Shown here: piece after piece, positions 9,073 through 64,000 of the stretch | How the letters are laid out: every line of letters starts with the position of its first letter | How positions within the stretch are numbered: position 1 is the first letter of the stretch | IMG/VR virus record: IMGVR_UViG_3300027741_000020 | Direction: 5' to 3' (one strand) | Source: a virus | Length of the DNA: 64,000 nt | Position numbers and translations under genes: made by a program | The notes under the pieces: generated by a model | The model's input: the letters and a program-made list of their open reading frames with translations, nothing else | The model's database searches: none | What the model was told of the DNA's origin: nothing

Positions 9073-10680
9073 ATGTCAGTACAATCGCAACCGAAAAAAA
9101 CATTAAAAGAAATTATAGCAGATGAATATCGTAAATGTGGATTAGACCCAGTTTACTTTATGAAAAAATACTGTGTTATCCAACACCCGACTCGTGGTAA
9201 AATACCATTTCACTTATATCCTTTTCAAGAGGATTGTATGATTGATTTTAAAAATAATCGTTTTAATATTATTCTTAAATCACGTCAACTTGGACTTTCA
9301 ACACTTTCCGCTGGATACATTCTTTGGAAAATGCTATTCAATCAGGACTTCAATGCGCTTGTTATCGCAACAAAAGTAACGGTAGCAAAAAACTTAGTTG
9401 AAAAAGTAAGAGTTATGCACGACCTTTTACCGATATGGTTGCGGGATGGTGGTAATAGCTCGGTTGAAGATAATAAACTATCACTCAAATTAAAGAATGG
9501 TTCACAATGTAAAGCAATTGCATCTTCACCTGATGCAGGACGTTCTGAAGCACTATCGCTATTAGTTGTTGATGAAGCGGCATTTATTCGTGATATCGAT
9601 GAAATCTGGCTATCGGCACAATCAACATTATCTACCGGTGGTTCGGCAATTGTATTATCTACGCCAAATGGTGTGGGTAATTGGTTTCATAAAATGTGGG
9701 TAGATGGTGAGAGTGGTGCAAATGGATTTCACAATATCAAACTACATTGGACGGTACATCCGGAAAGAAAGCAAGATTGGAGAGATGACCAAACTCGTAT
9801 TTTAGGAATTAAAGGCGCAGCACAAGAATGTGATTGTGATTTTGTAAGTTCAGGTGATACGGTAATCGACCCACATCTACTAATGTGGTACAAAGATACA
9901 TATGTAACCGACCCTGTCGAAAAACGTGGATTTGATGGAAACTTATGGGTATGGGAACATCCAAACTATAATCGTCAATATATGGTTGTAGCTGACGTTG
10001 CTCGTGGCGATGGCTCCGATTATTCTACTGCTCAAATAATTGATATAGAAGATAGCTCGCAAGTAGCAGAATATCGTGGCAAGATTGAAACAAAAGATTT
10101 TGGAAACTTTTTAACAGCAGTGGCAACCGAGTATAATAATGCGCTATTAGTTGTGGAAAACTCAAATGTAGGTTGGGCAACGATTCAGCAAATTATAGAT
10201 AGGGGATATGGTAATTTATTTTATATGAGTAATGACCTTAAATATATTGATGTTGAAAGGCAGATGAGCAATAAGTTTTACAGAGATGAAAGGCAAATGG
10301 TTGCTGGGTTTTCTACTACATCGAAGACTAGACCACTTATTATATCATCATTGGATTCATATATACAAAACAAAGATATTCTAATACGTTCAGTAAGACT
10401 AATAGATGAATTATTTACATTTATTTGGAATGGTGGTAGAGCGGAAGCTATGAAAGGATATAACGATGACCTTACTATGGCATTAGCAATCGGACTATGG
10501 GTAAGAAATACGGCATTAAGACTTAAACAAGAAGGGGTTGATTTGACAAAGAATATATTAAACGCATCGCATGTAGCAAAGTATGATAGTGTCTATACTA
10601 TAAATGGATTAAAATCAAATCCATATCAAATGGATGTTGGAAATGGTGAACAATCGAGCTTGACTTGGTTATTGGGTTAA
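9073..10680 (+). CDS. terL: terminase large subunit (T4 gp17-like)
   Basis: LKSRQLGLST Walker A, LLVVDEAAF Walker B, STPNG motif III, RNase H-like nuclease DVARGDGSDYS and C-terminal NDDLTMA. Confidence 0.97.
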   Translation: MSVQSQPKKTLKEIIADEYRKCGLDPVYFMKKYCVIQHPTRGKIPFHLYPFQEDCMIDFKNNRFNIILKSRQLGLSTLSAGYILWKMLFNQDFNALVIATKVTVAKNLVEKVRVMHDLLPIWLRDGGNSSVEDNKLSLKLKNGSQCKAIASSPDAGRSEALSLLVVDEAAFIRDIDEIWLSAQSTLSTGGSAIVLSTPNGVGNWFHKMWVDGESGANGFHNIKLHWTVHPERKQDWRDDQTRILGIKGAAQECDCDFVSSGDTVIDPHLLMWYKDTYVTDPVEKRGFDGNLWVWEHPNYNRQYMVVADVARGDGSDYSTAQIIDIEDSSQVAEYRGKIETKDFGNFLTAVATEYNNALLVVENSNVGWATIQQIIDRGYGNLFYMSNDLKYIDVERQMSNKFYRDERQMVAGFSTTSKTRPLIISSLDSYIQNKDILIRSVRLIDELFTFIWNGGRAEAMKGYNDDLTMALAIGLWVRNTALRLKQEGVDLTKNILNASHVAKYDSVYTINGLKSNPYQMDVGNGEQSSLTWLLG

Positions 10681-10693
10681 ATCAAATTTTTAT

Positions 10694-10701
10694 ATATTTA
10701 T
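10694..10701 (+). promoter_or_regulatory. putative phage late promoter motif ATATTTAT (representative copy)
   Basis: The same octamer sits a short distance upstream of many structural-gene starts (see finding). Confidence 0.6.
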
Positions 10702-10718
10702 AGATTGGATGATGAAAC

Positions 10719-11906
10719 ATGATAAAGCTAAGAGATATGCTAAATAAAGTAGGTGGGCCCACACCAAAACCACATTCTTCTACGCAAACACAAAATGAAG
10801 ATTTAAACAAATGGTTTAAAGAAAAATGGGTAAATATAGGAAAAAAAGTAAATGGTAAACATCCACCATGTGGCACTTCCGGTAAAAAAGTGGTTTATGC
10901 AAAATGTGTTCCTGCAGCTAAAGCAGCTGGAATGAGTAAAAAAGAAAAGGAAAGTGCCACTAGAAGAAAACGAGCAGCACAAAACGCAGCAGATAGAGGT
11001 GGTAAGAATAGTAATGGACAAGGAAAGACTCCGATATATGTTTCTACTAAAACAAAAAATGAAGGATGGAGTCAAAAATATAAAAATAGTATAAATTGTA
11101 ATAATCCAAAAGGTTTCTCTCAAAAAGCACATTGCAAAGGAAAGAAAAAAAATGAAACTATGAATATTGAAGAAAGACTAAACCTCTTTTTAGAGAAGAA
11201 TTGCCCAACTGATAAAGCAAAGTGGGCAGCATCTAAGGTAGCAGCTAAATCTAAATTCGATGTATACCCGTCAGCATACGCAAATGGATGGGCAGCAAAG
11301 AACTATAAAGGTAAAGGCGGTGGTTGGCGAAGTTGTAGTGAATCCGTAGTAAATGAAGATTGTTGGGATGGATATAAAAATGTAGGTGGAAAAATGAAAA
11401 ATGGTAAAATGGTGCCAAATTGTGTTCCTATAAATGAAGAAACCGCTGAACTTAATTGCGATGAAAACGGAAATTGTTGGGAATTAGAACCACCAAGATA
11501 TCCAAGCGATTCAATGGCAAATAGAACTATGGAAGAAGAAATCGATGAATATGATGTAGAAACCATAGAAGAAGAAAAATCTTTTATAAAATTTATGAGA
11601 GAATATAATCAATTACTATCTGAAGCAACTTGCCCATGTTTATTGGAAGCTGAGTATCAAGGACGTAACGTAAAGCTTGGTAAAATAATGCAAGGAGATA
11701 TTAAAAAATTCAAAGTATATGTTAAGAACGATAAAGGAAATGTTGTTAAAGTAAATTTTGGATTTGGTGGTAGTTCGGCCGGCGGAAAAAGAATGGTAAT
11801 TAAGAAAAATAATCCTGCAAGAAGAAAATCATTTAGAGCAAGAATGAATTGTGATAGTCCCGGTCCAAGATGGAAAGCAAGATATTGGGCATGTCGTACT
11901 TGGTAA
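10719..11906 (+). CDS. putative internal head protein made of short basic Cys/Trp-containing modules
   Basis: Lies between terminase and portal. MIKLRDML N-terminus; modules such as KFDVYPSAYANGW, CWDGYKNVG and ARRKSFRARMNC...ARYWAC are separated by xNE/LLE sites. Confidence 0.6.
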   Translation: MIKLRDMLNKVGGPTPKPHSSTQTQNEDLNKWFKEKWVNIGKKVNGKHPPCGTSGKKVVYAKCVPAAKAAGMSKKEKESATRRKRAAQNAADRGGKNSNGQGKTPIYVSTKTKNEGWSQKYKNSINCNNPKGFSQKAHCKGKKKNETMNIEERLNLFLEKNCPTDKAKWAASKVAAKSKFDVYPSAYANGWAAKNYKGKGGGWRSCSESVVNEDCWDGYKNVGGKMKNGKMVPNCVPINEETAELNCDENGNCWELEPPRYPSDSMANRTMEEEIDEYDVETIEEEKSFIKFMREYNQLLSEATCPCLLEAEYQGRNVKLGKIMQGDIKKFKVYVKNDKGNVVKVNFGFGGSSAGGKRMVIKKNNPARRKSFRARMNCDSPGPRWKARYWACRTW

Positions 11907-35452: not shown

Positions 35453-38400
35453 ATGGCAGTAAATAAAAATGAAATAACAGGTCAAGAGCAGTTGAATAAG
35501 TTGTTAAAAGATTATGAAAAAACTCTTAAAACAATAAAAGACCTCAAACGAAATCTTTTTGATGGCGATAAACTACAATCGTCAATGATTACCGAGCAAG
35601 TCAAAAAATCAAAAGATTTAAAGAAGCAGATTGATGAAATAAATAAAGCCATTGATAATCAGGTACAAGATTATGAGGATATGGATGATACTTTAATTAG
35701 TATCGGAAATACAATGAAAAAAAACCAAAAATTAGCACAAATAACAGCTGATAATTTTGGAAAAGTAAAAGATGTATCATTAAGTATAGCTACATTGCTT
35801 AAAGAGGGTGGGGTACAAAATACAAAAACCCAAAAGCAAGTAATAGCTATAAATGATGCATATAAAAACATGCATACATCTATAGCAAAAGCCAATAAAG
35901 AATATGCATTAGGTAGAATATCAAATGAAGATCGTGTAGCACTTATTAAACGTGAAGCAGATGAATTTCAAGACGTAGCTAGTATGATTGATATGAGCAA
36001 AGTATCATCGGAAGAATTACGAGGAGTTATTGGCGGTATGACCAAAGAGGGGGAAATGTTTAGTAAAAGTATGAAGGGAGCTACGGTACAATCAGAAGGA
36101 CTAGATAGAGTGATGGGTAGCTTTAGTGGTATACCAGCAATGGGTGAATTAAATACATTATTAAAAACAAACATAAAAGATACATTAGCATTTAAGGCGG
36201 CAACATTCGCATTAGGTGCCGCATTGGCAAAGGTGGCATATGATTACTTTGGTGCACCGATTGAAGTAGCAATGCAAAATGAGTTTGACATTAGAAAGAA
36301 TCGTATTCAAACTGCTATGGATGTTAAAAAGCTTGAAATAGAAGCACAGTTTATCCCTAGAAAAATAGAAAATGAAAGGCAAAGAAATCAGATTGACACA
36401 GCTAATAATATTAATCAAATCCAAATAGATGGTGCATTTGCCGTACAAAAGGCAATGGTTCAATTTAATTCGCAGTTGAAGCAAGGTGCTGCACAATTTG
36501 AAGCAGCTTCTAAAACCGCATTATTTGGCAAAGGTATTGGTAGTATAGGATATGGTGCAGCTCAAATGCAATTAGCAGGAGTGGGTGCTGAGCAAGTTGC
36601 ATCGGCAATGACCGCAGCAGCTTCTGCAACTGGTAAAATGCCATCATCGGCTGTAGCGGCAGATATGGCAATAATGGCAACAAGGACTGGACAATCCGTT
36701 GATAATATAGCAGAAATAAATGAATACTTCCAGAGAACTGATAAGGTATCTGCAAAAACTGCAATGAATTTACAAGAGGGACTTAGAGCAATGGCAGACC
36801 AAGCACATATTGGACTTGGTAAGTTAATGGAAGAAATTGCACAAAATTCAAAGGATGCACTTTCATATCAAATTAAAAGTGGACCTGCATTAGCAAAGCA
36901 AGTTGCATACGCACAAACTTTGGGGGTCAGTTTTGGCGATATAGCCAAAGCAGGTAAAAATATGGTACTAAATTATAAAGATAGTATCAAATCGGAAATG
37001 CAGCTAAGTACATTATTAGGAAAGCAAGTAGACCTATCAGAGGTTAGAGCTAAGTTTGCATCCGGAGATACGGAAGGCGGCTTGAAAGCATTAAAATCAC
37101 AAGGATTAGACCCCAAAGATATGGATATGTTCCAGCAAGAAGCCTTACAACAAGCTCTTGGTGGATTGGATTTAAGCTCTATATCAAAGGTAGCACAGAA
37201 TACTGGCGCAGCAGTTGGTGGATTGCAAGCAGGAAGCGCAAAAGGTGGCAATCAACAATTTTTAGGAACAAAGCAAGCAGCAGAACAAACATTAGCCGCA
37301 AAAAGTGCACAAATATCAGCAGCTACGGCAATAATTGATGCAAAACTTTCAGGCCAAATAACCGATGCGTATCTAAATTCTCCTGGGTATAAAACGTACC
37401 TAATGGCTCAAAATGATATGGCCAAAAAGGAAGCTGAATTAGCAAATACAATCCAAGCCGCAGTACTAGCAAGTAAAGAATATCAAAAACTTCAGGTCGA
37501 ACAAATAAAAGAGCAGGAGAAATTTGATATAGGTAAAACTTTAAGAGAGGGATTGGTTACTGCAGGTGGTGGTTTATTAACAACCGGAATGAGTAAGATG
37601 TTTGGAAAAAAAGGTGGTGATATTGCAGGAATGATAACTGGTGGTGGAGGCGGAGGCGAAGAAGGTGGCGATGGTGGTGGAGGCGGTGGAGCGGCAGAAG
37701 GGCCTATTGCAAGTGTAGCTGCACAAATTGAAGCAGCAGCTCCGGTATTAGAAAAAGCAAAACCTTTAGGTAAAGGAATAGCAGAATTTGGTAAAGGAAT
37801 AGGTAATTTCTTAAAAAGTGTTGGTAAAGGATTTGGTGCGTTAATTGAAGGTGTACTAACCGGATTAGCAGCTGGATTAAAAGCATTTGCAGACCCTATG
37901 ATATTAGTAGGAGCCGGTATATTAGCAGGTTCTATCACTTTGATAGGAGCAGGAATAGCAGGAGCTGCTTGGATATTGGGTAAAGCATTACCAACATTAG
38001 CAGAAGGATTTATGGCATTCAATGGTATCAATGGTGATAATTTAAAAGATGTGGGGGTAGGAGTTGCTGCATTAGGAGTTGGTATGGCAGCAATGGGAGC
38101 AGGAGCTGTATTATCTGGTATAGGTAATTTAGTTGGTAGTTTATTTGGCGGTGGCATAGAAGATACGATTAAAAAAGTAGAAAAATTTGCAGAAGCAAAT
38201 ATTAACGCTGATAAAGTAAAAAATAATGCAGATGCAATCGTAGCATATTCAAAAGCAATGGCAGCATCTGGATTAGGAAATGCTGCAAGTGGACTTGGTA
38301 ATATGGTTGGTGGTATTGCAAATGGTATTGCAAAATTCTTTGGAGGTGATACCGAATTACCAATAGATAAGATGGCAAAATTTGGAGCTTCGGAAATTGC

Positions 38401-39535
38401 AAATGCGGATACAATTAAGAAAAATGCGGAAACATTTACTGCATTTGCTACCGCAATGGATTCATATAAAGGTAGTGGTGGTTCGTTGGGTGGTGTATTA
38501 GCAGATGGATTGGGTAAATTCTTTAAAGTAAAACCACCAATAGAACAAATGAAGGAATTTGGTAAAGAATTACTTGTTCCTGATAATACTATATTAAAAG
38601 CAAATGCAGAAGCATTTACCGTATTTGGTAATGCAATGGCAACATATAAAGGAAGTGGTGCTGGAATTGGTGATGCATTAGCACAAGGTGTATCATCTTT
38701 CTTAAAAGTACCAACCCCATTAGGTAAATTTAAAGAATTTGCGGCAATAGATGGGATTGATGTACAAAAAACAAAAAATAACGCAGAAGCATTTACCGCA
38801 TTTGGTAATGCAATGGCAACATACAAAGGTTCAGGCGAAGGCTTCTGGTCTAGTTTAGGAGAAGGAATATCATCTTTCTTTGGTGGTGGTAAAGAGGATT
38901 TAATTACTAAATTCCAAAGATTCGCAGCATTAGACGCAGGTGGAGTAACTGCGATATCAACAGCAATTGGAAGTTTTAATACTAATTTATCGGGATTTAA
39001 TTCAGAAAGTGCCGAAGCAGTTGGTACTGGTATGGCAAGTGTTGCAAAAGCTACAACTGATTATTTAACAGCAGATAGAACGGCCGCAGTTAATGCATTC
39101 GCAACTTCTATTGGATTTTTAAATTCTCAATTAATGGGATTGGCTGGTGTCGGACGTTTAATGGAAACAACAACATTAGCATTTATGAACCTTGCATCCG
39201 CTTTACAAAGTTTAGCAGCAGTTAATACAAAAGCAATTAATGATATACCTTGGATAAGAATGACTGCATTTGCAGGAGCAGGTGGTAGAATTACATTGGC
39301 ACAAAGTGCAAATAATAACTTTAACATAGCACAGGATAGTGCAAAAAACATTGCACATATGGACCAACAAATAACACAGCTTGTGCTAGTAAATAAAAAC
39401 CTACAAGCACTAATGGCAGTAATGACGGATAATGCACAAGCCGCAACTGTATTACAAATAGATGGTAGACAGGTTACTGATATGATTAAAAGAAGAGCAG
39501 ATAATGCAAAAGCAATGAATCCGGCCAAAGGTTAA
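35453..39535 (+). CDS. tape measure protein
   Basis: 1360-aa Ala/Gly-rich helical protein after tube and chaperone; about 59-aa repeats NAEAFT.FGNAMATYKG.G; hydrophobic segments. Confidence 0.9.
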   Translation: MAVNKNEITGQEQLNKLLKDYEKTLKTIKDLKRNLFDGDKLQSSMITEQVKKSKDLKKQIDEINKAIDNQVQDYEDMDDTLISIGNTMKKNQKLAQITADNFGKVKDVSLSIATLLKEGGVQNTKTQKQVIAINDAYKNMHTSIAKANKEYALGRISNEDRVALIKREADEFQDVASMIDMSKVSSEELRGVIGGMTKEGEMFSKSMKGATVQSEGLDRVMGSFSGIPAMGELNTLLKTNIKDTLAFKAATFALGAALAKVAYDYFGAPIEVAMQNEFDIRKNRIQTAMDVKKLEIEAQFIPRKIENERQRNQIDTANNINQIQIDGAFAVQKAMVQFNSQLKQGAAQFEAASKTALFGKGIGSIGYGAAQMQLAGVGAEQVASAMTAAASATGKMPSSAVAADMAIMATRTGQSVDNIAEINEYFQRTDKVSAKTAMNLQEGLRAMADQAHIGLGKLMEEIAQNSKDALSYQIKSGPALAKQVAYAQTLGVSFGDIAKAGKNMVLNYKDSIKSEMQLSTLLGKQVDLSEVRAKFASGDTEGGLKALKSQGLDPKDMDMFQQEALQQALGGLDLSSISKVAQNTGAAVGGLQAGSAKGGNQQFLGTKQAAEQTLAAKSAQISAATAIIDAKLSGQITDAYLNSPGYKTYLMAQNDMAKKEAELANTIQAAVLASKEYQKLQVEQIKEQEKFDIGKTLREGLVTAGGGLLTTGMSKMFGKKGGDIAGMITGGGGGGEEGGDGGGGGGAAEGPIASVAAQIEAAAPVLEKAKPLGKGIAEFGKGIGNFLKSVGKGFGALIEGVLTGLAAGLKAFADPMILVGAGILAGSITLIGAGIAGAAWILGKALPTLAEGFMAFNGINGDNLKDVGVGVAALGVGMAAMGAGAVLSGIGNLVGSLFGGGIEDTIKKVEKFAEANINADKVKNNADAIVAYSKAMAASGLGNAASGLGNMVGGIANGIAKFFGGDTELPIDKMAKFGASEIANADTIKKNAETFTAFATAMDSYKGSGGSLGGVLADGLGKFFKVKPPIEQMKEFGKELLVPDNTILKANAEAFTVFGNAMATYKGSGAGIGDALAQGVSSFLKVPTPLGKFKEFAAIDGIDVQKTKNNAEAFTAFGNAMATYKGSGEGFWSSLGEGISSFFGGGKEDLITKFQRFAALDAGGVTAISTAIGSFNTNLSGFNSESAEAVGTGMASVAKATTDYLTADRTAAVNAFATSIGFLNSQLMGLAGVGRLMETTTLAFMNLASALQSLAAVNTKAINDIPWIRMTAFAGAGGRITLAQSANNNFNIAQDSAKNIAHMDQQITQLVLVNKNLQALMAVMTDNAQAATVLQIDGRQVTDMIKRRADNAKAMNPAKG
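38426..38840 (+). repeat. degenerate 177-180-nt internal repeats of the tape measure gene
   Basis: gcagaagcatttaccg.atttggtaatgcaatggcaacata.aaagg near 38606 and 38783, with a weaker copy near 38426. Confidence 0.75.
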
Positions 39536-54466: not shown

Positions 54467-56323
54467 ATGGACATTTCACAAAAAATTTTATCAGAAATTA
54501 CAGTCTATATGAAGTATGCAAAGTATAGACCTGAATTACAAAGACGTGAGACTTGGTATGAGTTGGTTACGCGTAATATGGAAATGCATATAAAAAAATA
54601 CCCAAAATTAGAGCAAGAGATTAGAGAGAATTACAAATTTGTATATGATAAAAAAGTATTACCATCGATGCGTTCAATGCAGTTCGCAGGTAAACCAATT
54701 GAAATCAGTCCTAATCGTATCTACAATTGTGCATTTGCACCGATTGATGATTGGAGAGTATTCGCAGAAATTATGTTTCTACTTTTAGGTGGAACGGGGG
54801 TTGGATATTCGGTACAAAAACACCACGTAGAACAATTGCCAGAAATCAGAAAGCCAAACGCAGATAAGACTAGACGTTTCCTTATTGGAGATAGTATTGA
54901 AGGTTGGGCAGATGCTATATCGGTATTAGTTAAAGCATACTTCTATGGTGGAAGTAAGCCGGTATTTGATTTCAGAGATATTAGACCAAAAGGAGCAAGG
55001 CTTGTAACATCAGGCGGTAAAGCACCAGGACCACAACCACTTAAAGAATGCTTAATCAAATTAGAAGGTATTTTAGAAAGTAAAAATGATGGTGATAAGT
55101 TAAGACCTATTGAAGTACATGATATGGTTTGCCACATTGCCGATGCGGTATTAGCAGGCGGTATTCGTAGAGCAGCACTTATTTCTCTATTCAGCGCATC
55201 TGATGATGAAATGATTAGTTGTAAGAGTGGTGCATGGTGGGAAACGAACCCACAAAGAGGTCGGGCTAATAACTCCGTTTCTCTAATGAGACACAAAATG
55301 ACAAAGGAATACTTTATGGATTTGTGGAAGCGGATTGAAGCAAGTGGAGCAGGTGAACCTGGCATCTATCTTTCAAACGATAAAGATTGGGGAACTAATC
55401 CATGTTGTGAGATTGCATTAAGACCTTTCCAATTCTGCAATCTATGCGAAGTGAATGTATCCGATGTTGTAGACCAAACCGATCTTAATGAGAGAGTTAA
55501 AGCAGCATCATTCATTGGTACATTGCAAGCCGGCTATACCGACTTCCACTATCTTCGTCCAATATGGCAGAGAACAACTGAAAAGGATGCACTTATTGGA
55601 GTATCAATGACTGGTATTGGAAGTGGTGCAGTTCTTAAATTGAATATGAAAGAGGCTGCAAGGGTAGTTAAAGAAGAAAACGCAAGAGTTGCAATAGAGT
55701 TGGACATCAATGTTTCAGCAAGAACAACAACTGTAAAGCCAGCAGGAACTACATCATTAACATTAGGTACATCATCAGGCATTCACGCTTGGCACAACGA
55801 TTACTACATTCGTAGAGTAAGAGTAGGTAAGAATGAATCAATTTATACACATTTAGCAATTCATCATCCAGAATTAATTGAAGATGAATATTTCCGACCA
55901 CATGATACGGCAGTAATTGGTATTCCACAAATGGCACCTGAAAATGCTATCCTTCGTAGTGAATCGCCAATTCAATTATTGGAAAGGGTTAAAAGAGTAC
56001 ATCACGAATGGATAAAACCTGGGCATAGAGGTGGAAGTAATACCCATAACGTATCAGCAACGGTTTCAATCCGTGAGCATGAGTGGAAAGCAGTTGGTGA
56101 ATGGATGTGGGAAAATAAAGAATTTTACAACGGTTTATCGGTATTGCCATATGACGGTGGTTCTTATATACAAGCTCCTTTTACTGACTGTACAGAGGAA
56201 GAATATGAAAAACTCATGTCAACTCTTACGGATATTGATTTATCAAAAGTAGTGGAACTGGATGATGAGACAGACTTATCCGGAGAACTTGCGTGTTCTG
56301 GCGGGGCATGCGAAATAAAATAA
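54467..56323 (+). CDS. nrdJ: class II (adenosylcobalamin-dependent) ribonucleotide reductase
   Basis: LPSMRSMQFAG, YNCAF, GGTGVG, GGIRRAA, TNPCCEI, CNLCE, TTVKPAGT, C-terminal ACSGGACE; no beta subunit nearby. Confidence 0.92.
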   Translation: MDISQKILSEITVYMKYAKYRPELQRRETWYELVTRNMEMHIKKYPKLEQEIRENYKFVYDKKVLPSMRSMQFAGKPIEISPNRIYNCAFAPIDDWRVFAEIMFLLLGGTGVGYSVQKHHVEQLPEIRKPNADKTRRFLIGDSIEGWADAISVLVKAYFYGGSKPVFDFRDIRPKGARLVTSGGKAPGPQPLKECLIKLEGILESKNDGDKLRPIEVHDMVCHIADAVLAGGIRRAALISLFSASDDEMISCKSGAWWETNPQRGRANNSVSLMRHKMTKEYFMDLWKRIEASGAGEPGIYLSNDKDWGTNPCCEIALRPFQFCNLCEVNVSDVVDQTDLNERVKAASFIGTLQAGYTDFHYLRPIWQRTTEKDALIGVSMTGIGSGAVLKLNMKEAARVVKEENARVAIELDINVSARTTTVKPAGTTSLTLGTSSGIHAWHNDYYIRRVRVGKNESIYTHLAIHHPELIEDEYFRPHDTAVIGIPQMAPENAILRSESPIQLLERVKRVHHEWIKPGHRGGSNTHNVSATVSIREHEWKAVGEWMWENKEFYNGLSVLPYDGGSYIQAPFTDCTEEEYEKLMSTLTDIDLSKVVELDDETDLSGELACSGGACEIK

Positions 56324-57589: not shown

Positions 57590-58699
57590 ATGATAAAACT
57601 CACCGACTTACTAGAAAATATTATCAAAGAAGATGGCTCTGATAAACAATTCAAATTAAATGCCTCACAATATAAAGCATTTGGACAAATATTATCAAAT
57701 TTTGATGCCGATATTGATAGTATTACATTAAATATGGATGAGGCTCCAAAGCCTAACTATACAAAAATGACGCCTGATGAATTAGAAGCTAGTGGTGCCG
57801 TTGTTGCAATAGATAAATCCGTAATTAGTAATCTTAATAACTTTTTAGAAGAAGGAATGATTGCAAAGAACTGGTATGAGGATATGAATAAAAAAATGTT
57901 AGATGCACTTGGTGAATCCGATGGTTGCTTATTTTTAATATTAATGGCCATATTTTCACCTCAAAATAAATTATCTCAAAACTTTCTACTTGCAGCTAAA
58001 TGTTTTGAAGGTATAAAATCGGATATTAATGATTCAAACAAACGAGAAACATTTATAACAATGATTTCATTAGATGCAAATACGTTATATAATAAATTAA
58101 AGGCTGGCGAATATAAAGATATGGCATCTGTACAAAAAATAATACCACATTCATTGAGTGTAAGATCGTATCTTTCTAATCTAACTAGAGTATTGAGATT
58201 ATACGCAGCTAAAGGTTTTAAATTTAATAAGGCTGATGTTGTTGCCGAAATCGCTAAAGCATTTACACCAACGGGAGCACTTACAAAACAAACGGTAATA
58301 TCAGCTGAGAAAGTTTTTTCTTTTACTCTAAATCTTTTAGACCCTTCATATGAATTAGAAGGCGGTTGGCTGCCAGTTACAATGGATACCTGGATGGCAT
58401 CGTTTTTCTATCCACAAATGTCAAAAAAAGATAAAACAAAATTGTTAGGAAAAACTGCCAATTATGTATATATGGCAAAACTTACACAACAATTAGCAAG
58501 CAAATTTGGAATGAAACCAATAGAAATGCAAGCTATAATATGGGTAGCTAAAATTAAAGAAAAGCAAGGGGCAAATTACGATGTTACATTTGATAATGCG
58601 ATTAAAAAAAACCTTGATAAATTAAAAGTAAAAGTTGATGAAATGGGTGATATTAAAACATTTTATCAAAAAGTCATTAGCGTAGTTGGTAAATCATAA
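57590..58699 (+). CDS. helical protein with HhH-glycosylase-like motifs and a head-targeting-like N-terminus
   Basis: MIKLTDLLE|NIIKE|D; AIFSPQN...N...A; KVFSF..NL; VTMDTW; A..LA.KFGM.P.EMQA.IW. Confidence 0.45.
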   Translation: MIKLTDLLENIIKEDGSDKQFKLNASQYKAFGQILSNFDADIDSITLNMDEAPKPNYTKMTPDELEASGAVVAIDKSVISNLNNFLEEGMIAKNWYEDMNKKMLDALGESDGCLFLILMAIFSPQNKLSQNFLLAAKCFEGIKSDINDSNKRETFITMISLDANTLYNKLKAGEYKDMASVQKIIPHSLSVRSYLSNLTRVLRLYAAKGFKFNKADVVAEIAKAFTPTGALTKQTVISAEKVFSFTLNLLDPSYELEGGWLPVTMDTWMASFFYPQMSKKDKTKLLGKTANYVYMAKLTQQLASKFGMKPIEMQAIIWVAKIKEKQGANYDVTFDNAIKKNLDKLKVKVDEMGDIKTFYQKVISVVGKS

Positions 58700-58706
58700 T
58701 ATTTAA

Positions 58707-58738
58707 TTTGGTAAATCCAAAAAAAAGTCGTATATTTA
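58707..58738 (+). promoter_or_regulatory. Bacteroidota-type promoter heading the putative DNA modification operon
   Basis: TTTG, 20 nt, then TATATTTA; ATG at 58743. Confidence 0.65.
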
Positions 58739-58742
58739 CCAT

Positions 58743-58943
58743 ATGAAATTAGTAGGAGAATCGCATCCAATGCATAAACTGACTGAAGTACAGGTTACGC
58801 AAATAAGGGATTTATGGAAAATTGGACATAGAAACATAAAAGTTCTTGCCAGAAATAATGGCGTATCTCAAACTAATATAAAAAAAATAGTTACAAACAA
58901 AACCTGGACGCACATGTTAAAGTGGCCGTATGAAAGAGTTTAA
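58743..58943 (+). CDS. stand-alone HTH domain of the type found C-terminal to HNH homing endonucleases
   Basis: GESHPMHKLTE.QV..IR.L...LA...GVS...I..IV..K.W.H, with no HNH catalytic part. Confidence 0.7.
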   Translation: MKLVGESHPMHKLTEVQVTQIRDLWKIGHRNIKVLARNNGVSQTNIKKIVTNKTWTHMLKWPYERV

Positions 58944-59694
58944 TAAGTTATATTGTGATATTTCAAAGTTATCTATAAGACCTGTAAATAAATCCATAGC
59001 AAAAGACATAATAGTTAATAATCACTACAGTGGTATTTGGACTAAAGTATCTTATGCGTTGGGTTTGTTCTACACATCAGATGACTCACACCAATTCTTT
59101 AGCGGTGTTAATGAAAAGCTAATAGGGGTTGCCTGTTATGGTGACCCAGTCGGCAGACACTCCGGCGCATCAATTTCCGAAGTATTAGATAGGACAGAAG
59201 TATTAGAATTAACTCGTCTATTCGTATTTGACGGGTATGGTTCTAATATTGAAAGTTGGTTTGTAGGACAAACTTTCGATTGGTTACGTCAAAACGCATC
59301 CAATATCAAAGCACTTGTTTCATATTCCGACCCGAAAGCAGGTCACGTTGGAACTATTTACCAAGCAACAAATTGGATATATCAGGGTAATCGTATTAGG
59401 CCAAATGATAGTTGGAGCTTCAAATGGACTGAAGATGATGAATGGCATCATAGCCGGACATCATATGTTAAGTTCGGAACGAATGACCCGAAGATTATAC
59501 AAACAATGACATCGACTCCCTTTTGGATTAAAAAAGAACCACGTAAGCATAGGTATGTTTACATTCTTGCAGATAAGCGTGATAAGAAAAGAATATTGAA
59601 AGAATTAAAATATCCCTCGTTACCTTATCCAAAAACAAATGTGGAGTTTATTGAAGAAATACATAAATTAGAACCAATTGAAAGAGTTAAATAA
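58930..59694 (+). CDS. mom: Mom-like DNA modification protein (GNAT fold), paralog 1
   Basis: IIVNNHYS...LIGVACYG.P...ELTRLF...SWFVG...LVSYSD...H.GTIYQATNWIYQG...KHRY.Y.L...LPYPK. Confidence 0.8.
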   Translation: MKEFNKLYCDISKLSIRPVNKSIAKDIIVNNHYSGIWTKVSYALGLFYTSDDSHQFFSGVNEKLIGVACYGDPVGRHSGASISEVLDRTEVLELTRLFVFDGYGSNIESWFVGQTFDWLRQNASNIKALVSYSDPKAGHVGTIYQATNWIYQGNRIRPNDSWSFKWTEDDEWHHSRTSYVKFGTNDPKIIQTMTSTPFWIKKEPRKHRYVYILADKRDKKRILKELKYPSLPYPKTNVEFIEEIHKLEPIERVK

Positions 59695-60481
59695 AATATA
59701 TTGCGATACATCAAGAGTATCAGTTAGAGAAATTGGCAAATCAGCTGCAAAAGAAATAATTGTAAAGAAACACTATACGCATGCGTGGACTGCGTGTAGA
59801 TACGCATTGGGCATATTCTATAAGACTGATGAAGTAACCGTATTAGGCGATAGTGATAAACTCATAGGAGTATTAGTATATGGATTTCCGGTTGGAGCTA
59901 GAGCAGCACTTTCAATATCGGAAACTCTTACAAAAGATAATGTATTGGAATTGACAAGACTTTATTGCGATGATGGATATGGCTCTAACATTGAAAGTTA
60001 TGCTATCGGACAATCGTTCAAATGGTTTAGAGAAAACGATAAAGCAATTAAGGTACTAATATCATATGCGGATAATGGGCAAGACCATTTAGGAGGAATA
60101 TACCAGGCAACAAATTGGATTTATCAGGGACCATCCACATCAATAGCACTGATGCCAAATTACGGAATATCACTTACGGAAAATCCATATAACTGGATTC
60201 ATAGTAGAACTGTTTATAGTATGTGGGGCTCTTCAAATTTAGAACATCTAAAAAGAGAAATTGGAAAAAATGGTTATCCAAAATTTTGGAGAAGAATGGA
60301 ATCCGGAAAACACAGATATATACAAGTCGTAGTAGCAGATAAAAAAGAAAAAAAAGCACTAATTAAAAGTTTAAAGCATAAAACTATACCATACCCAAAA
60401 TCCGCTGAATTGTATAATAAAGAAATAGAATGCCATATCACTATACCTCCTGAAAATAATATACAAAAATCTTTTTGGTAA
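59678..60481 (+). CDS. mom: Mom-like DNA modification protein (GNAT fold), paralog 2
   Basis: Same motif set (ELTRLY, LISYAD...H.GGIYQATNWIYQG, KHRYI, IPYPK); TTG start overlapping paralog 1. Confidence 0.8.
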   Translation: MKELNKIYCDTSRVSVREIGKSAAKEIIVKKHYTHAWTACRYALGIFYKTDEVTVLGDSDKLIGVLVYGFPVGARAALSISETLTKDNVLELTRLYCDDGYGSNIESYAIGQSFKWFRENDKAIKVLISYADNGQDHLGGIYQATNWIYQGPSTSIALMPNYGISLTENPYNWIHSRTVYSMWGSSNLEHLKREIGKNGYPKFWRRMESGKHRYIQVVVADKKEKKALIKSLKHKTIPYPKSAELYNKEIECHITIPPENNIQKSFW

Positions 60482-60505
60482 TCTCAGGTATTTTTCGTAT
60501 ATTAC
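60474..60505 (+). promoter_or_regulatory. Bacteroidota-type internal promoter for the DruA-like/GT/PolB genes
   Basis: TTTG, 20 nt, then TATATTAC; ATG at 60509. Confidence 0.5.
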
Positions 60506-60508
60506 ATT

Positions 60509-61735
60509 ATGAAATTTTGGGAAACAGGCGAAACAGCCACAGCAGAAGTATTTGACTACAAAGCAATGAAAGAGAAGTTTATAGCAAATTTGGACTATCT
60601 TAAAACTATGTCAGTTGAAGAGCAAACACTATATAAAAAATGGATGGAATGGAACGAAGACCTACCAACTAATATGAAGCGTTTGCCAGTATTACAATCA
60701 CATTTTGATTCATTATGGCTACCAACCGATATTATGGATAAGGAATTGACTATCGCACAAATTCAAGCGCTAGACCCTTATGTTGAAATTGTTGAAGATA
60801 ATCCAAAGGAAGCAACTCGTTGGACGGATATTAGAAAGTTAATTCATACAATGGAGTTTCAGGCTAATCCAGGTCGTAATGTAAAATGCTATGTAAAGGA
60901 TAGGACTAGTGGTAAAATACTTGGACAGATTTGTTTAGGTAGTGATATTACTTCACTTGGTGTTCGTGATGGATATATTGGTTGGGGCAAGGAAGATAAG
61001 TTTAAGAATGGTAAGTTGAATAATACAACAATCGCAACTACAATCGTATCAACACAGCCATTTGGATATAACTTTTTGGGTGGTAAGTTAATCGCAGCGC
61101 TAGCAACATCGCCGGAGGTTAGAGATTATTGGAAGAAAAAATATGATAATGTGCTAATAGGTGTTGGTACAACTTCTCTTTACGGAATCCACTCACAATA
61201 TAATGGTATTCCACACTTTAAAACATTGGGTGAAAGTAAAGGCAAAATCAGTACAAAGCCAGATGATAAGGTGTATGACCCGTGGCACCAATGGTTAAAA
61301 GAAAATCGTGCAGATTGGTATAAAACACATATCCTATTAGAACGTGAAAGAAACGGAGCAAATATGGGTTATGAAAAAAACGGACCTGTAAGTGGTATTA
61401 AACAAAAGATTATTCAGGCTATATTCAAAGAGCTTGGAATTAAAGGAAACGCTTATGACCACGGATTTCAACGTGGTGTTTACTTCGCACAAATGTATGA
61501 TAATGGCAATGAGTTCCTATGTTCAAAGATAGATGAATCTCAATTAGTTCTTAAACAAAAGTTTGCAGAAGGAAACGCTTACACTGTAAAATGGTGGAAG
61601 GATAAAGCAATCAAACGCTATGAGAAAATGCATAGTGAAGGTAAAATCAAACCAGAAGCACTATTTTATGTAGATGCAATCGGAATGACTTGGGAAGGAA
61701 TGAAATCACATTATTTAAAAGAAGTAGGAAGATAA
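60509..61735 (+). CDS. DUF4338/DruA-like protein (predicted GNAT-related fold)
   Basis: PGRN....V.D..SGK.LG.I.LGS; RD.YIGW; QPFGYNFLGGKLIA.L..S.EVR..W.KKY; TTSLYG..SQYN; RGVY. Confidence 0.75.
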   Translation: MKFWETGETATAEVFDYKAMKEKFIANLDYLKTMSVEEQTLYKKWMEWNEDLPTNMKRLPVLQSHFDSLWLPTDIMDKELTIAQIQALDPYVEIVEDNPKEATRWTDIRKLIHTMEFQANPGRNVKCYVKDRTSGKILGQICLGSDITSLGVRDGYIGWGKEDKFKNGKLNNTTIATTIVSTQPFGYNFLGGKLIAALATSPEVRDYWKKKYDNVLIGVGTTSLYGIHSQYNGIPHFKTLGESKGKISTKPDDKVYDPWHQWLKENRADWYKTHILLERERNGANMGYEKNGPVSGIKQKIIQAIFKELGIKGNAYDHGFQRGVYFAQMYDNGNEFLCSKIDESQLVLKQKFAEGNAYTVKWWKDKAIKRYEKMHSEGKIKPEALFYVDAIGMTWEGMKSHYLKEVGR

Positions 61736-61736
61736 T

Positions 61737-62843
61737 ATGAAATTTTGGGAAACAGAAGTTGATATAAACGCAAGAAAAGTTTTGGTTATACCAAATATTA
61801 CAAATTCACAAAATATAGAAAAGGACTCGTTTGTAGATGTTATATATAATCATATTTTAGGACTCAAAGAGTATGGTTCTTACTATTGGCACATACTATT
61901 ACCACAGCCAGTTAAAAAGCTAAATTTAGACAACGTAAAGCAACATATAATACCATTTTCAGGCGATATGATTAAAATGAGAACATATCCACCTGATATG
62001 AATAGATTGCTTGAAACATTGGATTATGATTCAATATACTCACATCTTCCAGACTGGCCTCAAGTTGGTAGATATAAAAATTCATTTGATACAAAAATAA
62101 TTGGATATTGCCATTGGTGGGAAATGAAAACCTGTAACGCTGAAGACCGTAAGAATAAATGGCGTTGGATGCCTATTGAATTACTTGGTGTATCACAAAT
62201 GGAAACTTGCTTTCTAAATACACAAGAACAAAAAGATAGGGTTTTGGCCGAAGCTAAAATGTGGTTCAATGATGAATTTGTTTCTAATTTAGATAATATA
62301 TTGACTGTTTGGAATTTGGGAATTGAAAAATCAAAAATTATAAAAGCTCCAACTAAAAAAGAAAAGATTATAGTTTTCAACCATAGAGCAGCCGCTTATA
62401 AAGGTTATCCGAAATTTATAGAATTAATGAAGGAATATAGAGAACGTAGGCAGGATTTCAAAGTATGGGTGCCACAATTAGATGGAAAGCCTGAAGTAAG
62501 TTGGATTGATAATACAAAAGTGGCAAAGCACGATTATTATAAAAAATTACAAAGTTGTACGGTTGGAATACAAATGAGGCAAACAAATTATGGGTGGAGT
62601 GTAGCAGCTACGGATTGTATGATGAATGGAACGCCGATGATATTTCAGGAATCAGAATGTTACAAAGAGATTGACCCTAATGGTTTATTTTTTAAATTCA
62701 AAAAAGACCTTTTTGAAATGTTAGATAAATTGTTGGATGATGGGGAATACATAACCAACCAATCGGTTAGAAGTATAGATAGAGCAAACGACTTGGCCTT
62801 AAATGATAAAAAAATGTTTGAGGTATTAAGTAAAAAATTGTAA
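61737..62843 (+). CDS. GT-B fold (GT4-like) glycosyltransferase
   Basis: FNHR....KGY..F; Y..L......I; WSVAATDCMMNGTPMI matches the E/D-x7 nucleotide-sugar-binding region of GT4. Confidence 0.8.
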   Translation: MKFWETEVDINARKVLVIPNITNSQNIEKDSFVDVIYNHILGLKEYGSYYWHILLPQPVKKLNLDNVKQHIIPFSGDMIKMRTYPPDMNRLLETLDYDSIYSHLPDWPQVGRYKNSFDTKIIGYCHWWEMKTCNAEDRKNKWRWMPIELLGVSQMETCFLNTQEQKDRVLAEAKMWFNDEFVSNLDNILTVWNLGIEKSKIIKAPTKKEKIIVFNHRAAAYKGYPKFIELMKEYRERRQDFKVWVPQLDGKPEVSWIDNTKVAKHDYYKKLQSCTVGIQMRQTNYGWSVAATDCMMNGTPMIFQESECYKEIDPNGLFFKFKKDLFEMLDKLLDDGEYITNQSVRSIDRANDLALNDKKMFEVLSKKL

Positions 62844-62851
62844 ATAACGAT

Positions 62852-64000
62852 ATGGCATATAAAAATATATATTACGAAAGAAATAAAAACCTTATGCATA
62901 TATGGGATGATGCAACCGGGTACACTACAATACCATACCGAAAATATGCGTATAAAAAAGACCCAAATGGACAGCATCGTTCAATGTATGGCGATAAATT
63001 GACTCGTATTGGTAAGTGGGAAAAAGATGATGCAGAAGACCTGTTTGAATCGGATGTACCAGAAACAACAAGAGTATTAGTGGATATGTACGATTCCGAT
63101 TTACCGTCAACAGGACATACTGTATTAACCTTTGATATTGAGGTTGAAATGATTACAGGATTACCAAATACTAGAGAAGCTAAAAACGAAATAACAGCAA
63201 TCGCTGCACAAGATAATATCAGTAGAGTGTACGATGTGTTTGTTTTAGATAAAAGCAAAAAAATTAAAAACAATGCTAAAAACTTTGATAAGGATGGTAG
63301 GAAAGTTAATGTTCACGTTTTCGATAACGAGAAAAATCTCCTACTTGCATTTCTTGATTATTACGAAGAAATTAACCCAACTATTTTAACCGGATGGAAT
63401 ATTGACTTCTTTGATATTCCATATCTTTACAATCGTATAAAAAATGTATGTAGTGAGGGACACGCTAAACGGCTTTCACCAATCGGACAATGTTTCTATT
63501 CACCATACCGTGAGAAGTGGAGTTTTGGTGGTGTGAGCATTTTGGACTACATTAACCTATATAAAACTTACACTTATACATTGGAAAGTAGCTACACACT
63601 TAACTATATTGCTACAAAGGAATTAGGGCGTGGTAAGGTTGAATACGAAGGTAATTTGGATGACCTCTTTGAAAATGATTTGGAAAAATTCATTGAGTAT
63701 AACATTGTGGATGTGGAGCTTGTAGCAGCGATGGATGATAAGTTACAATTCATTGAGTTATGTAGAGCAGTTTGTCACGCAGGGTTTGTACCATATGAAG
63801 ATTATATATTTTCTTCAAAGTGGTTGGAAGGAGCATGCTTGGGGTATCTTAAAAAGAAAGGATTAGTAGCAACAAATAAACCAAAAGACCGTAAGGAACG
63901 AATGCAGGCTCTACGTGATAACAATGAAGAGAAATTCATTGGAGCATATGTAAAGGAGCCTATTGTGGGCAAGTATGATTGGATTTATGATTTGGATTTG
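62852..64000 (+). CDS. polB: family B DNA polymerase (gp43-like), 3'-truncated; absent from the ORF track
   Basis: Manual translation from ATG 62852 stays open to the window end: ExoI TFDIEVE, ExoII TGWNIDFFDIPYL, ExoIII EYNIVDV, then GAYVKEP...YDLDL (region II). Confidence 0.95.
   Translation, partial: MAYKNIYYERNKNLMHIWDDATGYTTIPYRKYAYKKDPNGQHRSMYGDKLTRIGKWEKDDAEDLFESDVPETTRVLVDMYDSDLPSTGHTVLTFDIEVEMITGLPNTREAKNEITAIAAQDNISRVYDVFVLDKSKKIKNNAKNFDKDGRKVNVHVFDNEKNLLLAFLDYYEEINPTILTGWNIDFFDIPYLYNRIKNVCSEGHAKRLSPIGQCFYSPYREKWSFGGVSILDYINLYKTYTYTLESSYTLNYIATKELGRGKVEYEGNLDDLFENDLEKFIEYNIVDVELVAAMDDKLQFIELCRAVCHAGFVPYEDYIFSSKWLEGACLGYLKKKGLVATNKPKDRKERMQALRDNNEEKFIGAYVKEPIVGKYDWIYDLDL

What the first reader, a model, noticed from the sequence alone, without database searches (positions are those of the whole stretch)
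58930..62843. Candidate new DNA hypermodification system: two Mom paralogs + DruA/DUF4338-like protein + GT-B glycosyltransferase, directly upstream of PolB
Seen: four tightly packed genes next to the replicative polymerase. Two are tandem Mom-like GNAT proteins that differ in the substrate-side loops (SGIWTKVSY versus THAWTACRY; PNDSWSF versus TSIALMPNYGI). The third is a DUF4338-like protein and the fourth a GT4-like enzyme. Established: Mu Mom converts adenine to N6-carbamoylmethyl-adenine and blocks restriction (recent work reports Gly-tRNA as the donor), and phage GT-B enzymes glycosylate modified bases. Inference: a multi-step or multi-base modification, for example different aminoacyl donors or sequence contexts for each Mom, with the product further acylated or glycosylated. 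I know of no characterised pathway with this combination.
Basis: partly seen in the sequence, partly recalled or inferred. Interest (0 to 1): 0.88.

Follow-up and report, generated by a model that had tools for sequence, protein, structure and literature searches.

The report
Phage Mom pair plus replisome-linked enzymes
An abundant uncultured aquatic T4-like phage keeps two intact copies of the Mu "Mom" DNA-adenine-modifying enzyme beside a separately transcribed pair of enzymes (a DruA-family acyltransferase and a glycosyltransferase) wired into its DNA-polymerase/clamp genes; the genes are real and conserved, but a single joined pathway is not shown.

Summary
The window holds Mom1 (58930-59694), Mom2 (59678-60481), a DruA/DUF4338 protein (60509-61735) and a GT-B glycosyltransferase (61737-62843), followed by PolB.

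Both Moms keep the family-wide catalytic residues. They come from one old duplication that is retained across relatives. Genomes with a single Mom keep the Mom2 type.

The DruA-like protein is a GNAT whose nearest solved structure is Mu Mom, but only at fold level. In other lineages its domain is fused to ParB or UDG domains. The GT is a generic GT4-like fold with no cultured-phage homolog.

Synteny in 80 related viral contigs shows two separable units. The Mom pair can lie about 20 kb away. DruA-like and GT always stay with PolB and the clamp, and DruA-like has its own conserved promoter-like element.

Mom2 (C-terminus), DruA-like and GT (N-termini) carry conserved Phe-Trp tags that resemble PolB's clamp-binding tail. 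A GT-clamp fold test gave only weak support.

No route to a hydroxylated base was found.

The single multi-step pathway reading is therefore only partly supported. This scan has already met the same system in at least 8 other genomes, with similar follow-up verdicts.

The parts
58708..58736 (+). Promoter-like element TTGGTA-N17-TATATT directly upstream of the 66-aa ORF
   Evidence: it shares the TTTGGTAA...TCGTATA(T)TTAC...ATGAAATT layout with the element upstream of DruA-like. There are 3 matches in the window against 0.45 expected.
58743..58943 (+). 66-aa conserved small ORF that overlaps the Mom1 start by 14 nt. It has weak likeness to the C-terminal (DNA-binding) part of phage HNH endonucleases and sits where com sits ahead of mom in Mu. 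Function unknown.
   Evidence: It lies immediately upstream of the Mom gene(s) in nearly all related loci. It has no Cys zinc finger, so it is not a Com homolog.
58930..59694 (+). Mom1: Mom-family GNAT (254 aa), the accessory paralog
   Evidence: PF25680 150 bits. PDB 8bv8 E 1e-9. Catalytic set H58/Y59/R111/S124/D149/Y159/W181 conserved. Absent from several relatives that keep Mom2.
59678..60481 (+). Mom2: Mom-family GNAT (267 aa), the core paralog, with an invariant C-terminal aromatic pair (FW; YW in L053)
   Evidence: PF25680 150 bits. Catalytic set conserved. It is the only Mom in single-Mom relatives, for example L013, L059 and L074. Monophyletic group with support 96/92.
60475..60503 (+). 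Promoter-like element TTGGTA-N17-TATATT heading the DruA-like/GT/PolB unit
   Evidence: Of 76 strict matches in 960 kb of related loci, 27 end within 40 nt upstream of a DruA-like start; none directly precede Mom1, Mom2 or PolB.
60509..61735 (+). DruA/DUF4338-family GNAT-fold protein (408 aa) with a disordered N-terminal MKFWET tag
   Evidence: PF14236 65 bits, PADLOC DruA 72 bits. AF2 pLDDT 91.6. Top hit in an exhaustive PDB comparison is Mu Mom 8bv8_B, Z 9.7, 172 aligned residues, rmsd 4.0; the next GNATs score Z 8.5 or less. N-terminal MxFW(D/E) is conserved across lineages.
61737..62843 (+). GT-B (GT4-like) glycosyltransferase (368 aa) with a disordered N-terminal MKFWET tag
   Evidence: AF2 pLDDT 83.5. 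Foldseek hits MshA, PimA, BshA and PglA at E 1e-13 to 1e-10, TMq 0.6-0.7. R217 and K222 in the HRAAAYKG motif and F3/W4 are invariant in 24-25 homologs. It lies directly upstream of PolB in most of the 80 loci.
62852..64000 (+). Family B DNA polymerase (gp43-type), N-terminal part; it runs off the window
   Evidence: PF03104 88.6 bits. 48.6% identical to Microcystis phage Mel-JY01 PolB. In relatives the C-terminus ends ...(K/Q)FF(S/A/G)F.

Best explanation
The stretch holds two separable units inside the replication gene block of an uncultured aquatic T4-like phage of about 190 kb. Unit 1 (58743-60481) is a small conserved ORF plus Mom1 and Mom2. These are two anciently duplicated Mom-family GNATs, both apparently catalytically intact. 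By homology to Mu Mom, they most likely transfer an aminoacyl group from charged tRNA to N6 of adenine in double-stranded phage DNA, as protection against restriction. They differ mainly next to the H58/Y59 site and in the HTH-like DNA-binding insertion, so the likeliest division of labour is different DNA sequence contexts. Mom2 is the core enzyme and Mom1 an add-on. Unit 2 (60475-62843, running into PolB) has its own promoter-like element. It encodes a DruA-family GNAT and a GT4-like glycosyltransferase that always travel with PolB and the probable sliding-clamp gene. Both carry an N-terminal Phe-Trp-acid tag on a floppy tail. Mom2 ends in Phe-Trp and PolB ends in FFxF. I infer that these tags dock the enzymes on the clamp or replisome, so that they act on freshly made DNA. 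What is shown: gene identities, folds, conservation, synteny and motifs. What is inferred: the substrates, the donors, the docking, and any chemical link between the units.
For: Mom identity and catalytic residues. These are read against the mutagenesis in PMC13219725. One old duplication with both copies retained. Mom2 as the sole copy in single-Mom genomes. Paralog-specific segments coincide with Mu residues 60-67 and the 175-209 insertion, which the paper assigns to DNA binding. DruA-like is a GNAT with Mom as its top structural hit. Distant DruA-like proteins are fused to ParB_N, UDG and homing-endonuclease modules. DruA-like lies next to the probable clamp gene or just upstream of GT-PolB in every lineage, including relatives at 43-48% identity. 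The promoter-like element is specific to DruA-like starts. The terminal FW tags are conserved, lie in segments with pLDDT below 50, and are unique among the window's 77 plus-strand ORFs. Complex prediction of the probable clamp with GT gave weak support: median ipSAE 0.60 (runs 0.17, 0.74, 0.60) against a best control of 0.00. That mark was reached by 58 of 80 solved complexes and 2 of 110 mismatched pairs. However, only 7 of those 80 solved complexes, and both mismatches that passed, scored 0.60 or under. The runs agree in at least 42% of contacts and the partner pLDDT is at least 80. My own alignments were used, so these counts hold only roughly. Inserts at the same locus in relatives share a nucleic-acid modification and restriction theme: a DNA methylase and DUF262/NsnA-like proteins.
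Against: There is no chemistry of any kind: all substrates and donors are inferred. hhalign finds no sequence-level link between DruA-like and Mom, and Z 9.7 is only about 1 unit above generic GNATs. The DruA-like protein keeps a Q-x-x-G...GGK loop after strand 4, read by eye from the sequence and model. That resembles a CoA-binding loop, so it may use acyl-CoA on a non-DNA target. The GT's closest folds act on small molecules, lipids or proteins, and known DNA glycosyltransferases rank low. The clamp identity itself rests on weak hits (PCNA_C E 0.0045; phrog_947 E 8e-4), its size and its position. The complex test reported no interface, so it cannot be tied to the FW tag. Cultured pelagiphage DruA-like proteins lack the MxFW start.
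Confidence: 0.5

Rival explanations
1. One reading: one integrated multi-step pathway. A Mom paralog installs an aminoacyl-derived group on adenine (possibly from a hydroxyl-bearing amino acid), and DruA-like and/or GT then acylate or glycosylate it to build a composite hypermodified base.
For: The four genes are contiguous in the window and its closest relatives. Complete relatives that were checked carry all the families. Three of the four share the FW tag. A RimK-type amino-acid ligase sits between the two Moms in one lineage, which hints at elaboration of an aminoacyl adduct.
Against: The Mom pair lies about 20 kb from DruA-GT in a complete 195-kb relative. DruA-like occurs without an adjacent Mom in cultured pelagiphages. 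The two units have separate promoter-like elements. The known Mom product, N6-carbamoylmethyl-adenine, offers no hydroxyl for a GT (PMC13219725). Co-occurrence inside one phage lineage's core genome is not evidence of a functional link.
Confidence: 0.15
2. Only the Moms act on DNA. DruA-like and GT are early-expressed enzymes with non-DNA substrates, for example acylation or glycosylation of phage or host proteins or of a metabolite, and they sit next to PolB only because of shared timing.
For: The GT's best structural neighbours are small-molecule, lipid and protein GT4 enzymes and actinophage glycosyltransferases. Several further GT1-family genes lie 6-16 kb away in relatives, which fits a wider glycan programme. 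No hydroxylated-base pathway was found. DruA-like keeps a CoA-type loop (by-eye reading of the sequence and model).
Against: Linkage of DruA-like and GT to PolB and the clamp survives three different gene orders, down to 43-48% identity. The DruA domain is fused to ParB_N and UDG elsewhere. The shared terminal tag resembles PolB's tail. The GT-clamp fold test gave weak support (score 0.60 against control 0.00, with the caveats given under the best explanation).
Confidence: 0.3
3. Mom1 and Mom2 work as an obligate heterodimer, with one catalytic and one targeting subunit, rather than as two independent enzymes.
For: Mu Mom is a functional dimer. The genes overlap and are likely co-translated. 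Mom1 was never seen without Mom2.
Against: Both paralogs keep the full catalytic set. Mom2 occurs alone in several relatives, including a complete 266-kb genome, so Mom2 at least is self-sufficient.
Confidence: 0.12

Closest known systems
Bacteriophage Mu Mom (PF25680; PDB 8bv8; PMC13219725)
   Same: Both paralogs are full-length family members with H58, Y59, R111, S124, D149, Y159 and W181 conserved and an insertion at the same place. Like Mu's mom, they are preceded by a small overlapping ORF.
   Different: About 27-28% identity to Mu Mom. There are two diverged copies in tandem, in a large lytic T4-like phage rather than a temperate transposable one. Mu R151 is K or G here, which is the family norm. 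The Mu dimer residue W48 is not kept. The upstream ORF is not a Com zinc finger. Mom2 has a C-terminal FW tail.
DruA (DUF4338, PF14236) of type I Druantia anti-phage defence
   Same: Clear family membership by Pfam and PADLOC models, and a GNAT fold, as the Aravind group stated for DUF4338 (PMC10853773).
   Different: It is encoded by a phage, with no DruB-E partners, and sits among replisome genes with an N-terminal FW tag. The biochemical activity of DruA itself is unknown, so nothing can be transferred from it. Phage DruA-like genes in Synechococcus phages were noted, without characterisation, in the Phold preprint (10.1101/2025.08.05.668817).
GT4-type GT-B glycosyltransferases (MshA, BshA, PimA, PglA)
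   Same: Two-Rossmann GT-B fold (TMq 0.6-0.7), with a conserved R...KG motif in the C-terminal domain where GT4 enzymes bind the nucleotide-sugar phosphate.
   Different: Below the Pfam gathering scores. The EX7E motif is degenerate (N284...T292-D293). It is restricted to phages, with no homolog in 50,697 cultured-phage records. The acceptor is unknown.
T4 alpha/beta-glucosyltransferases and the phage HY126 5-hydroxycytosine arabinosyltransferase (DNA glycosyltransferases)
   Same: Phage GT-B enzymes encoded among replication genes. From my own recollection, not checked here, T4 alpha-GT has been reported to interact with the gp45 clamp.
   Different: No specific structural closeness: HY126 ranks 23 in the PDB search and a DNA alpha-GT ranks 29 in the viral library (TM 0.50). 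Relatives have no hydroxymethylase or hydroxylase pathway.
T4/RB69 gp45 clamp-interaction peptides on gp43, gp55 and gp33
   Same: A short aromatic motif on a disordered terminal tail. This lineage's PolB ends in ...KKFFSF, as expected of a clamp-binding tail.
   Different: Here the motif is Phe-Trp. It is N-terminal in two of the three enzymes, and the carriers are modification-type enzymes. Binding is untested apart from a weak fold-based score.

Membership tests
Mom (PF25680) | Profile match above the curated cut-off over the full domain | tested here: met
   150.1 and 150.2 bits against a cut-off of 27.1, covering profile positions 2-202 of 202
Mom (PF25680) | Active-site residues H58, Y59, R111, S124, D149, Y159 (Mu numbering) | tested here: met
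   H58, Y59, R111, S124 and Y159 are invariant across both paralog groups and 5 cultured-phage Moms. D149 is invariant among the cultured-phage Moms and is N in one Mom2 ortholog, L068
Mom (PF25680) | R151, essential in Mu | tested here: not met
   K or N in the Mom1 group and G or E in the Mom2 group. Other family members also have M, K, S or G here, so this is a Mu peculiarity and not a family-defining residue
Mom (PF25680) | HTH-like insertion containing W181 | tested here: met
   An insertion is present at the same alignment position and W181 is invariant in both groups. The Mom structures were not modelled here
Mom (PF25680) | Aminoacyl-tRNA donor and N6-adenine product in dsDNA | not testable with these tools
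   Requires biochemistry or nucleoside mass spectrometry
DruA / DUF4338 (PF14236) | Profile match above the curated cut-off | tested here: met
   65.2 bits against a cut-off of 27; PADLOC DruA model E 1.2e-20
DruA / DUF4338 (PF14236) | GNAT fold | tested here: met
   Model pLDDT 91.6. The top 50 structural hits are overwhelmingly GNAT-superfamily acyltransferases, led by Mu Mom at Z 9.7
Type I Druantia system | DruA encoded together with DruB-DruE | tested here: not met
   The neighbours are Mom, GT, PolB and the probable clamp in all 80 loci and in more distant relatives. None of the proteins scanned here against PADLOC or Pfam matched a Dru component other than DruA
GT4 / Glycos_transf_1 | Pfam match above the gathering score | tested here: not met
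   22.4 bits against 26.4, and 17.0 against 28.5
GT-B fold glycosyltransferases | Two Rossmann-like domains superposable on solved GT-B enzymes | tested here: met
   Foldseek E 1e-13, TMq 0.66-0.70 to MshA and a mycobacterial mannosyltransferase
GT4 / Glycos_transf_1 | EX7E motif and the R/K phosphate-binding pair | tested here: inconclusive
   R217 and K222 are invariant. The EX7E position reads N284...T292-D293. This was judged by eye, without a structural alignment
Phage DNA glycosyltransferases (T4 AGT/BGT, HY126 type) | Specific structural or sequence likeness | tested here: inconclusive
   HY126 GT ranks 23 in the PDB search (TMq 0.57-0.62); a DNA alpha-GT ranks 29 in the viral library (TM 0.50)
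Phage DNA glycosyltransferases (T4 AGT/BGT, HY126 type) | A companion pathway that makes a hydroxylated base | tested here: not met
   Relatives carry a canonical ThyA (345 bits to the NCBIfam thymidylate synthase equivalog) or ThyX, interchangeably. Only thymidylate-synthase-type enzymes were searched for
Clamp-interacting peptide carriers | Conserved aromatic motif on a disordered terminus | tested here: met
Clamp-interacting peptide carriers | Physical binding to the clamp | tested here: inconclusive
   Complex prediction gave weak support: 0.60 against a best control of 0.00, with no interface reported

The most novel reading that the evidence does not exclude
Mom2, the DruA-like acyltransferase and the glycosyltransferase all ride on the phage sliding clamp through Phe-Trp end-tags and modify DNA as it leaves the polymerase. 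Together they would build one or more adenine adducts more complex than Mu's. This would also reveal DruA as a DNA acyltransferase, and so point to what the DruA component of type I Druantia defence does.
Probability: 0.13. Interest if true: 0.9.

Novelty: new variant of a known kind. Interest (0 to 1): 0.6.

Why it matters
Mom chemistry (aminoacyl-tRNA onto DNA adenine) was worked out only recently, and for a single enzyme. Here a very abundant uncultured aquatic phage lineage has kept two diverged Mom enzymes over a long period. That is a natural experiment on what sets Mom's target or donor specificity. The adjacent DruA-family protein is the phage counterpart of a defence component whose activity is unknown. 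Three leads make that activity directly testable: Mom is its nearest solved structure, it is linked to the clamp gene, and its domain is fused to ParB and UDG elsewhere. If the Phe-Trp tags prove to be clamp hooks, they would show how phages couple DNA modification to replication.

Tried and rejected
- **Megablast of the cassette against cultured phages:** no match.
- **GT protein against cultured phages:** no match.
- **Sequence search of PDB:** nothing for GT and nothing meaningful for DruA-like.
- **NCBIfam:** nothing for any of the four proteins.
- **hhalign of the DruA-like profile against the Mom profile:** probability 1%, so no sequence-level homology is claimed.
- **Foldseek on DruA-like:** only weak p300/GNAT rows. 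The exhaustive aligner was needed.
- **Loss of R151 as a sign of inactivity or new chemistry:** rejected, because the position varies across the whole family.
- **Phage tRNA-Gly as specific support for a Gly donor:** rejected, because a complete relative carries a near-full tRNA set.
- **hmC or hmU pathway as a source of a GT acceptor:** not found.
- **Likeness to the HY126 DNA arabinosyltransferase:** not specific.
- **Generic promoter and terminator scan:** counts at chance level. Only the repeated TTGGTA...TATATT element proved informative.
- **Whole genome of the window:** not held.
- **Literature:** no paper was found on tandem Mom paralogs or on a Mom/DruA/GT association.

Full report
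**Observation.** The four ORFs are at the coordinates given, all on the + strand and tightly packed.
- Mom1 (58930-59694) and Mom2 (59678-60481) each score about 150 bits on Pfam Mom, against a cut-off of 27.1, and both hit the PHROG Mom family. They are 46% identical to each other.
- The third ORF (60509-61735) is a DruA/DUF4338 family member by Pfam, PHROGs and PADLOC.
- The fourth (61737-62843) has only sub-threshold Pfam glycosyltransferase hits. Its AlphaFold model (pLDDT 83.5) is nonetheless a clear GT-B fold, closest to GT4 enzymes such as MshA, BshA, PimA and PglA.
- A family B polymerase starts 8 nt later.

**What phage this is.**
- There is no DNA-level match in 50,697 cultured phage records.
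- PolB is 48.6% identical to that of Microcystis phage Mel-JY01.
- The DruA-like protein is 30-33% identical to those of Pelagibacter myophages Mosig and HTVC008M.
- The GT alone has 831 metagenomic homologs and 168 related IMG/VR stretches.
- Related contigs reach 180-266 kb and are rated complete.
- In Mel-JY01 the slot between thioredoxin and PolB holds only two small genes. The cassette therefore occupies a plasticity region.

**The Mom pair.** I aligned both paralogs with Mu Mom and five cultured-phage Moms and read the result against the published mutagenesis (PMC13219725).
- H58, Y59, R111, S124 and Y159 are invariant throughout. D149 is N in one Mom2 ortholog (L068). W181 is invariant within this lineage's two groups and Mu.
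- R151, essential in Mu, is K/N in the Mom1 group and G/E in the Mom2 group. It is equally variable in other Moms, so it is a Mu peculiarity and not a sign of inactivity.
- Mom1 and Mom2 form two ortholog groups split by a supported branch (96/92, and in 100% of bootstrap trees). They are sisters relative to other Moms. This means one old duplication with both copies kept.
- Genomes with one Mom keep the Mom2 type, including a complete 266-kb relative. Mom1 was never seen alone.
- The paralog-specific segments lie next to H58/Y59 and in the HTH-like insertion. The Mu paper assigns that insertion to major-groove DNA binding. I therefore favour different sequence contexts over different donors.
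- A conserved 66-aa ORF (58743-58943) overlaps the Mom1 start and precedes the Mom gene(s) in nearly every lineage. It is in the same position as Mu com but has no zinc finger.

**The DruA-like protein.**
- With a 46-sequence alignment drawn from an exhaustive search, the model reaches pLDDT 91.6.
- Compared against 48,161 representative PDB chains, the best hit is Mu Mom itself (8bv8_B: Z 9.7, 172 residues, rmsd 4.0). Ordinary GNATs follow at Z 8.5 or less.
- Profile-profile comparison finds no sequence signal, so the kinship is at fold level only.
- Distant family members fuse the domain to ParB_N, to a uracil-DNA-glycosylase domain and to homing-endonuclease modules. That points to work at DNA.
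- After strand 4 it keeps a Q-x-x-G...GGK loop, which Mom lacks. This is a by-eye reading and may mean an acyl-CoA donor.

**The glycosyltransferase.**
- R217 and K222 (HRAAAYKG) are invariant, which fits nucleotide-sugar binding. The EX7E motif is degenerate.
- Its nearest viral structures are an uncharacterised uncultured-phage protein and Arthrobacter-phage glycosyltransferases. Known DNA glycosyltransferases rank low.
- Relatives encode a canonical ThyA or a ThyX, interchangeably, so I see no route to a hydroxymethylated pyrimidine acceptor.
- Several other GT1-family genes lie 6-16 kb away in relatives.

**Linkage.** The survey of 80 related loci shows three layouts:
- Mom1-Mom2-DruA-GT-PolB, as in the window.
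- GT-PolB-clamp-DruA, with the Moms upstream.
- PolB-clamp-DruA-GT, with the Mom pair about 20 kb away in a complete genome.

GT or DruA-like always adjoins PolB or the 237-aa probable clamp. That protein has weak PCNA_C and processivity-factor hits, the right size, and a position ahead of the clamp loader. The clamp-DruA adjacency persists at 43-48% identity, and in one such lineage a single Mom sits between the clamp-loader subunits. A TTGGTA-N17-TATATT element precedes both the 66-aa ORF and DruA-like. Across related loci, 27 of 76 strict matches sit within 40 nt upstream of a DruA-like start and none directly precede Mom1, Mom2 or PolB. I therefore read the stretch as two transcription units.

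**End-tags.**
- PolB ends in ...(K/Q)FF(S/A/G)F.
- Mom2 ends in an invariant aromatic pair (FW, or YW in L053).
- DruA-like and GT, which have unrelated folds, both start MxFW(D/E) on tails with pLDDT below 50.
- No other plus-strand ORF in the window has such termini.

A fold test of the probable clamp with GT gave weak support:
- The median score was 0.60 (runs 0.17, 0.74, 0.60) against a best control of 0.00.
- The mark was reached by 58 of 80 solved complexes and 2 of 110 mismatched pairs.
- However, only 7 of those 80 solved complexes, and both mismatches that passed, scored 0.60 or under.
- The runs agree in at least 42% of contacts and the partner pLDDT is at least 80. My own alignments were used, and no interface was given.

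This raises my odds of replisome docking a little, but it does not establish it.

**Verdict.** The claim of one multi-step pathway is only partly supported. The evidence fits a Mom-pair unit for DNA adenine modification, plus a separable replisome-linked DruA-like/GT unit of unknown chemistry. I found no paper describing tandem Mom paralogs or this gene association. The scan has already flagged the same system in at least 8 other genomes, and follow-ups there reached similar verdicts. I read those notes only after reaching my own conclusions.

Noticed in passing
L060:4553-5437: In one related lineage a RimK-family ATP-grasp alpha-L-glutamate ligase (TIGR00768, 236 bits) sits between Mom1 and Mom2. 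It could extend an aminoacyl adduct, or it could be unrelated.
   Followed up: partly
L034:2901-5067 and L034:6307-8001; L015:6456-7997: Other lineages carry inserts in the cassette. L034 has an N6/N4 DNA methylase plus a 415-aa protein with no Pfam hit between the Moms. L034 and L015 have DUF262/GmrSD_N-like proteins (PADLOC NsnA hit for L015) next to the GT. The locus is a hot-spot for modification and restriction genes.
   Followed up: partly
window 57590-58699: The DUF7178 gene upstream of the cassette has no counterpart in any of the 80 related loci. Even the 96%-identical relative L003 goes straight from thioredoxin to the 66-aa ORF. It is probably a recent insertion.
   Followed up: partly
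L011:11676-12128 and L011:15997-17103: Directly after PolB lies a 150-aa ORF with a weak GNAT hit. After the clamp loader comes a radical SAM/SPASM enzyme. Neither was examined further.
   Followed up: no
L112:569-4728 and 10041-10868: A more distant relative has a single Mom between the clamp-loader subunits, next to ClpP. A NAMPT/NUDIX/nucleotidyltransferase (NAD salvage) block lies upstream of the clamp-DruA pair.
   Followed up: no
L099, L097 (G007:1-5224); L102, L093 (G006:1-3901): Complete relatives carry arrays of 14-23 tRNA genes covering nearly all amino acids, including two tRNA-Gly.
   Followed up: partly
L105:3155-4666 (Polaribacter phage P12002L): The closest cultured-phage Mom (46% identical to Mom1) sits directly after a DNA methyltransferase, and it also ends in an aromatic residue (...CDW).
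   Followed up: no
window 54467-56323: A 618-aa ribonucleotide reductase has only weak Pfam scores (class II-type insertion domain at 30.6 bits). It is a divergent RNR.
   Followed up: no
window 2407-7455 and 35453-39535: Two very long ORFs (1682 and 1360 aa) in the structural region were not examined here.
   Followed up: no
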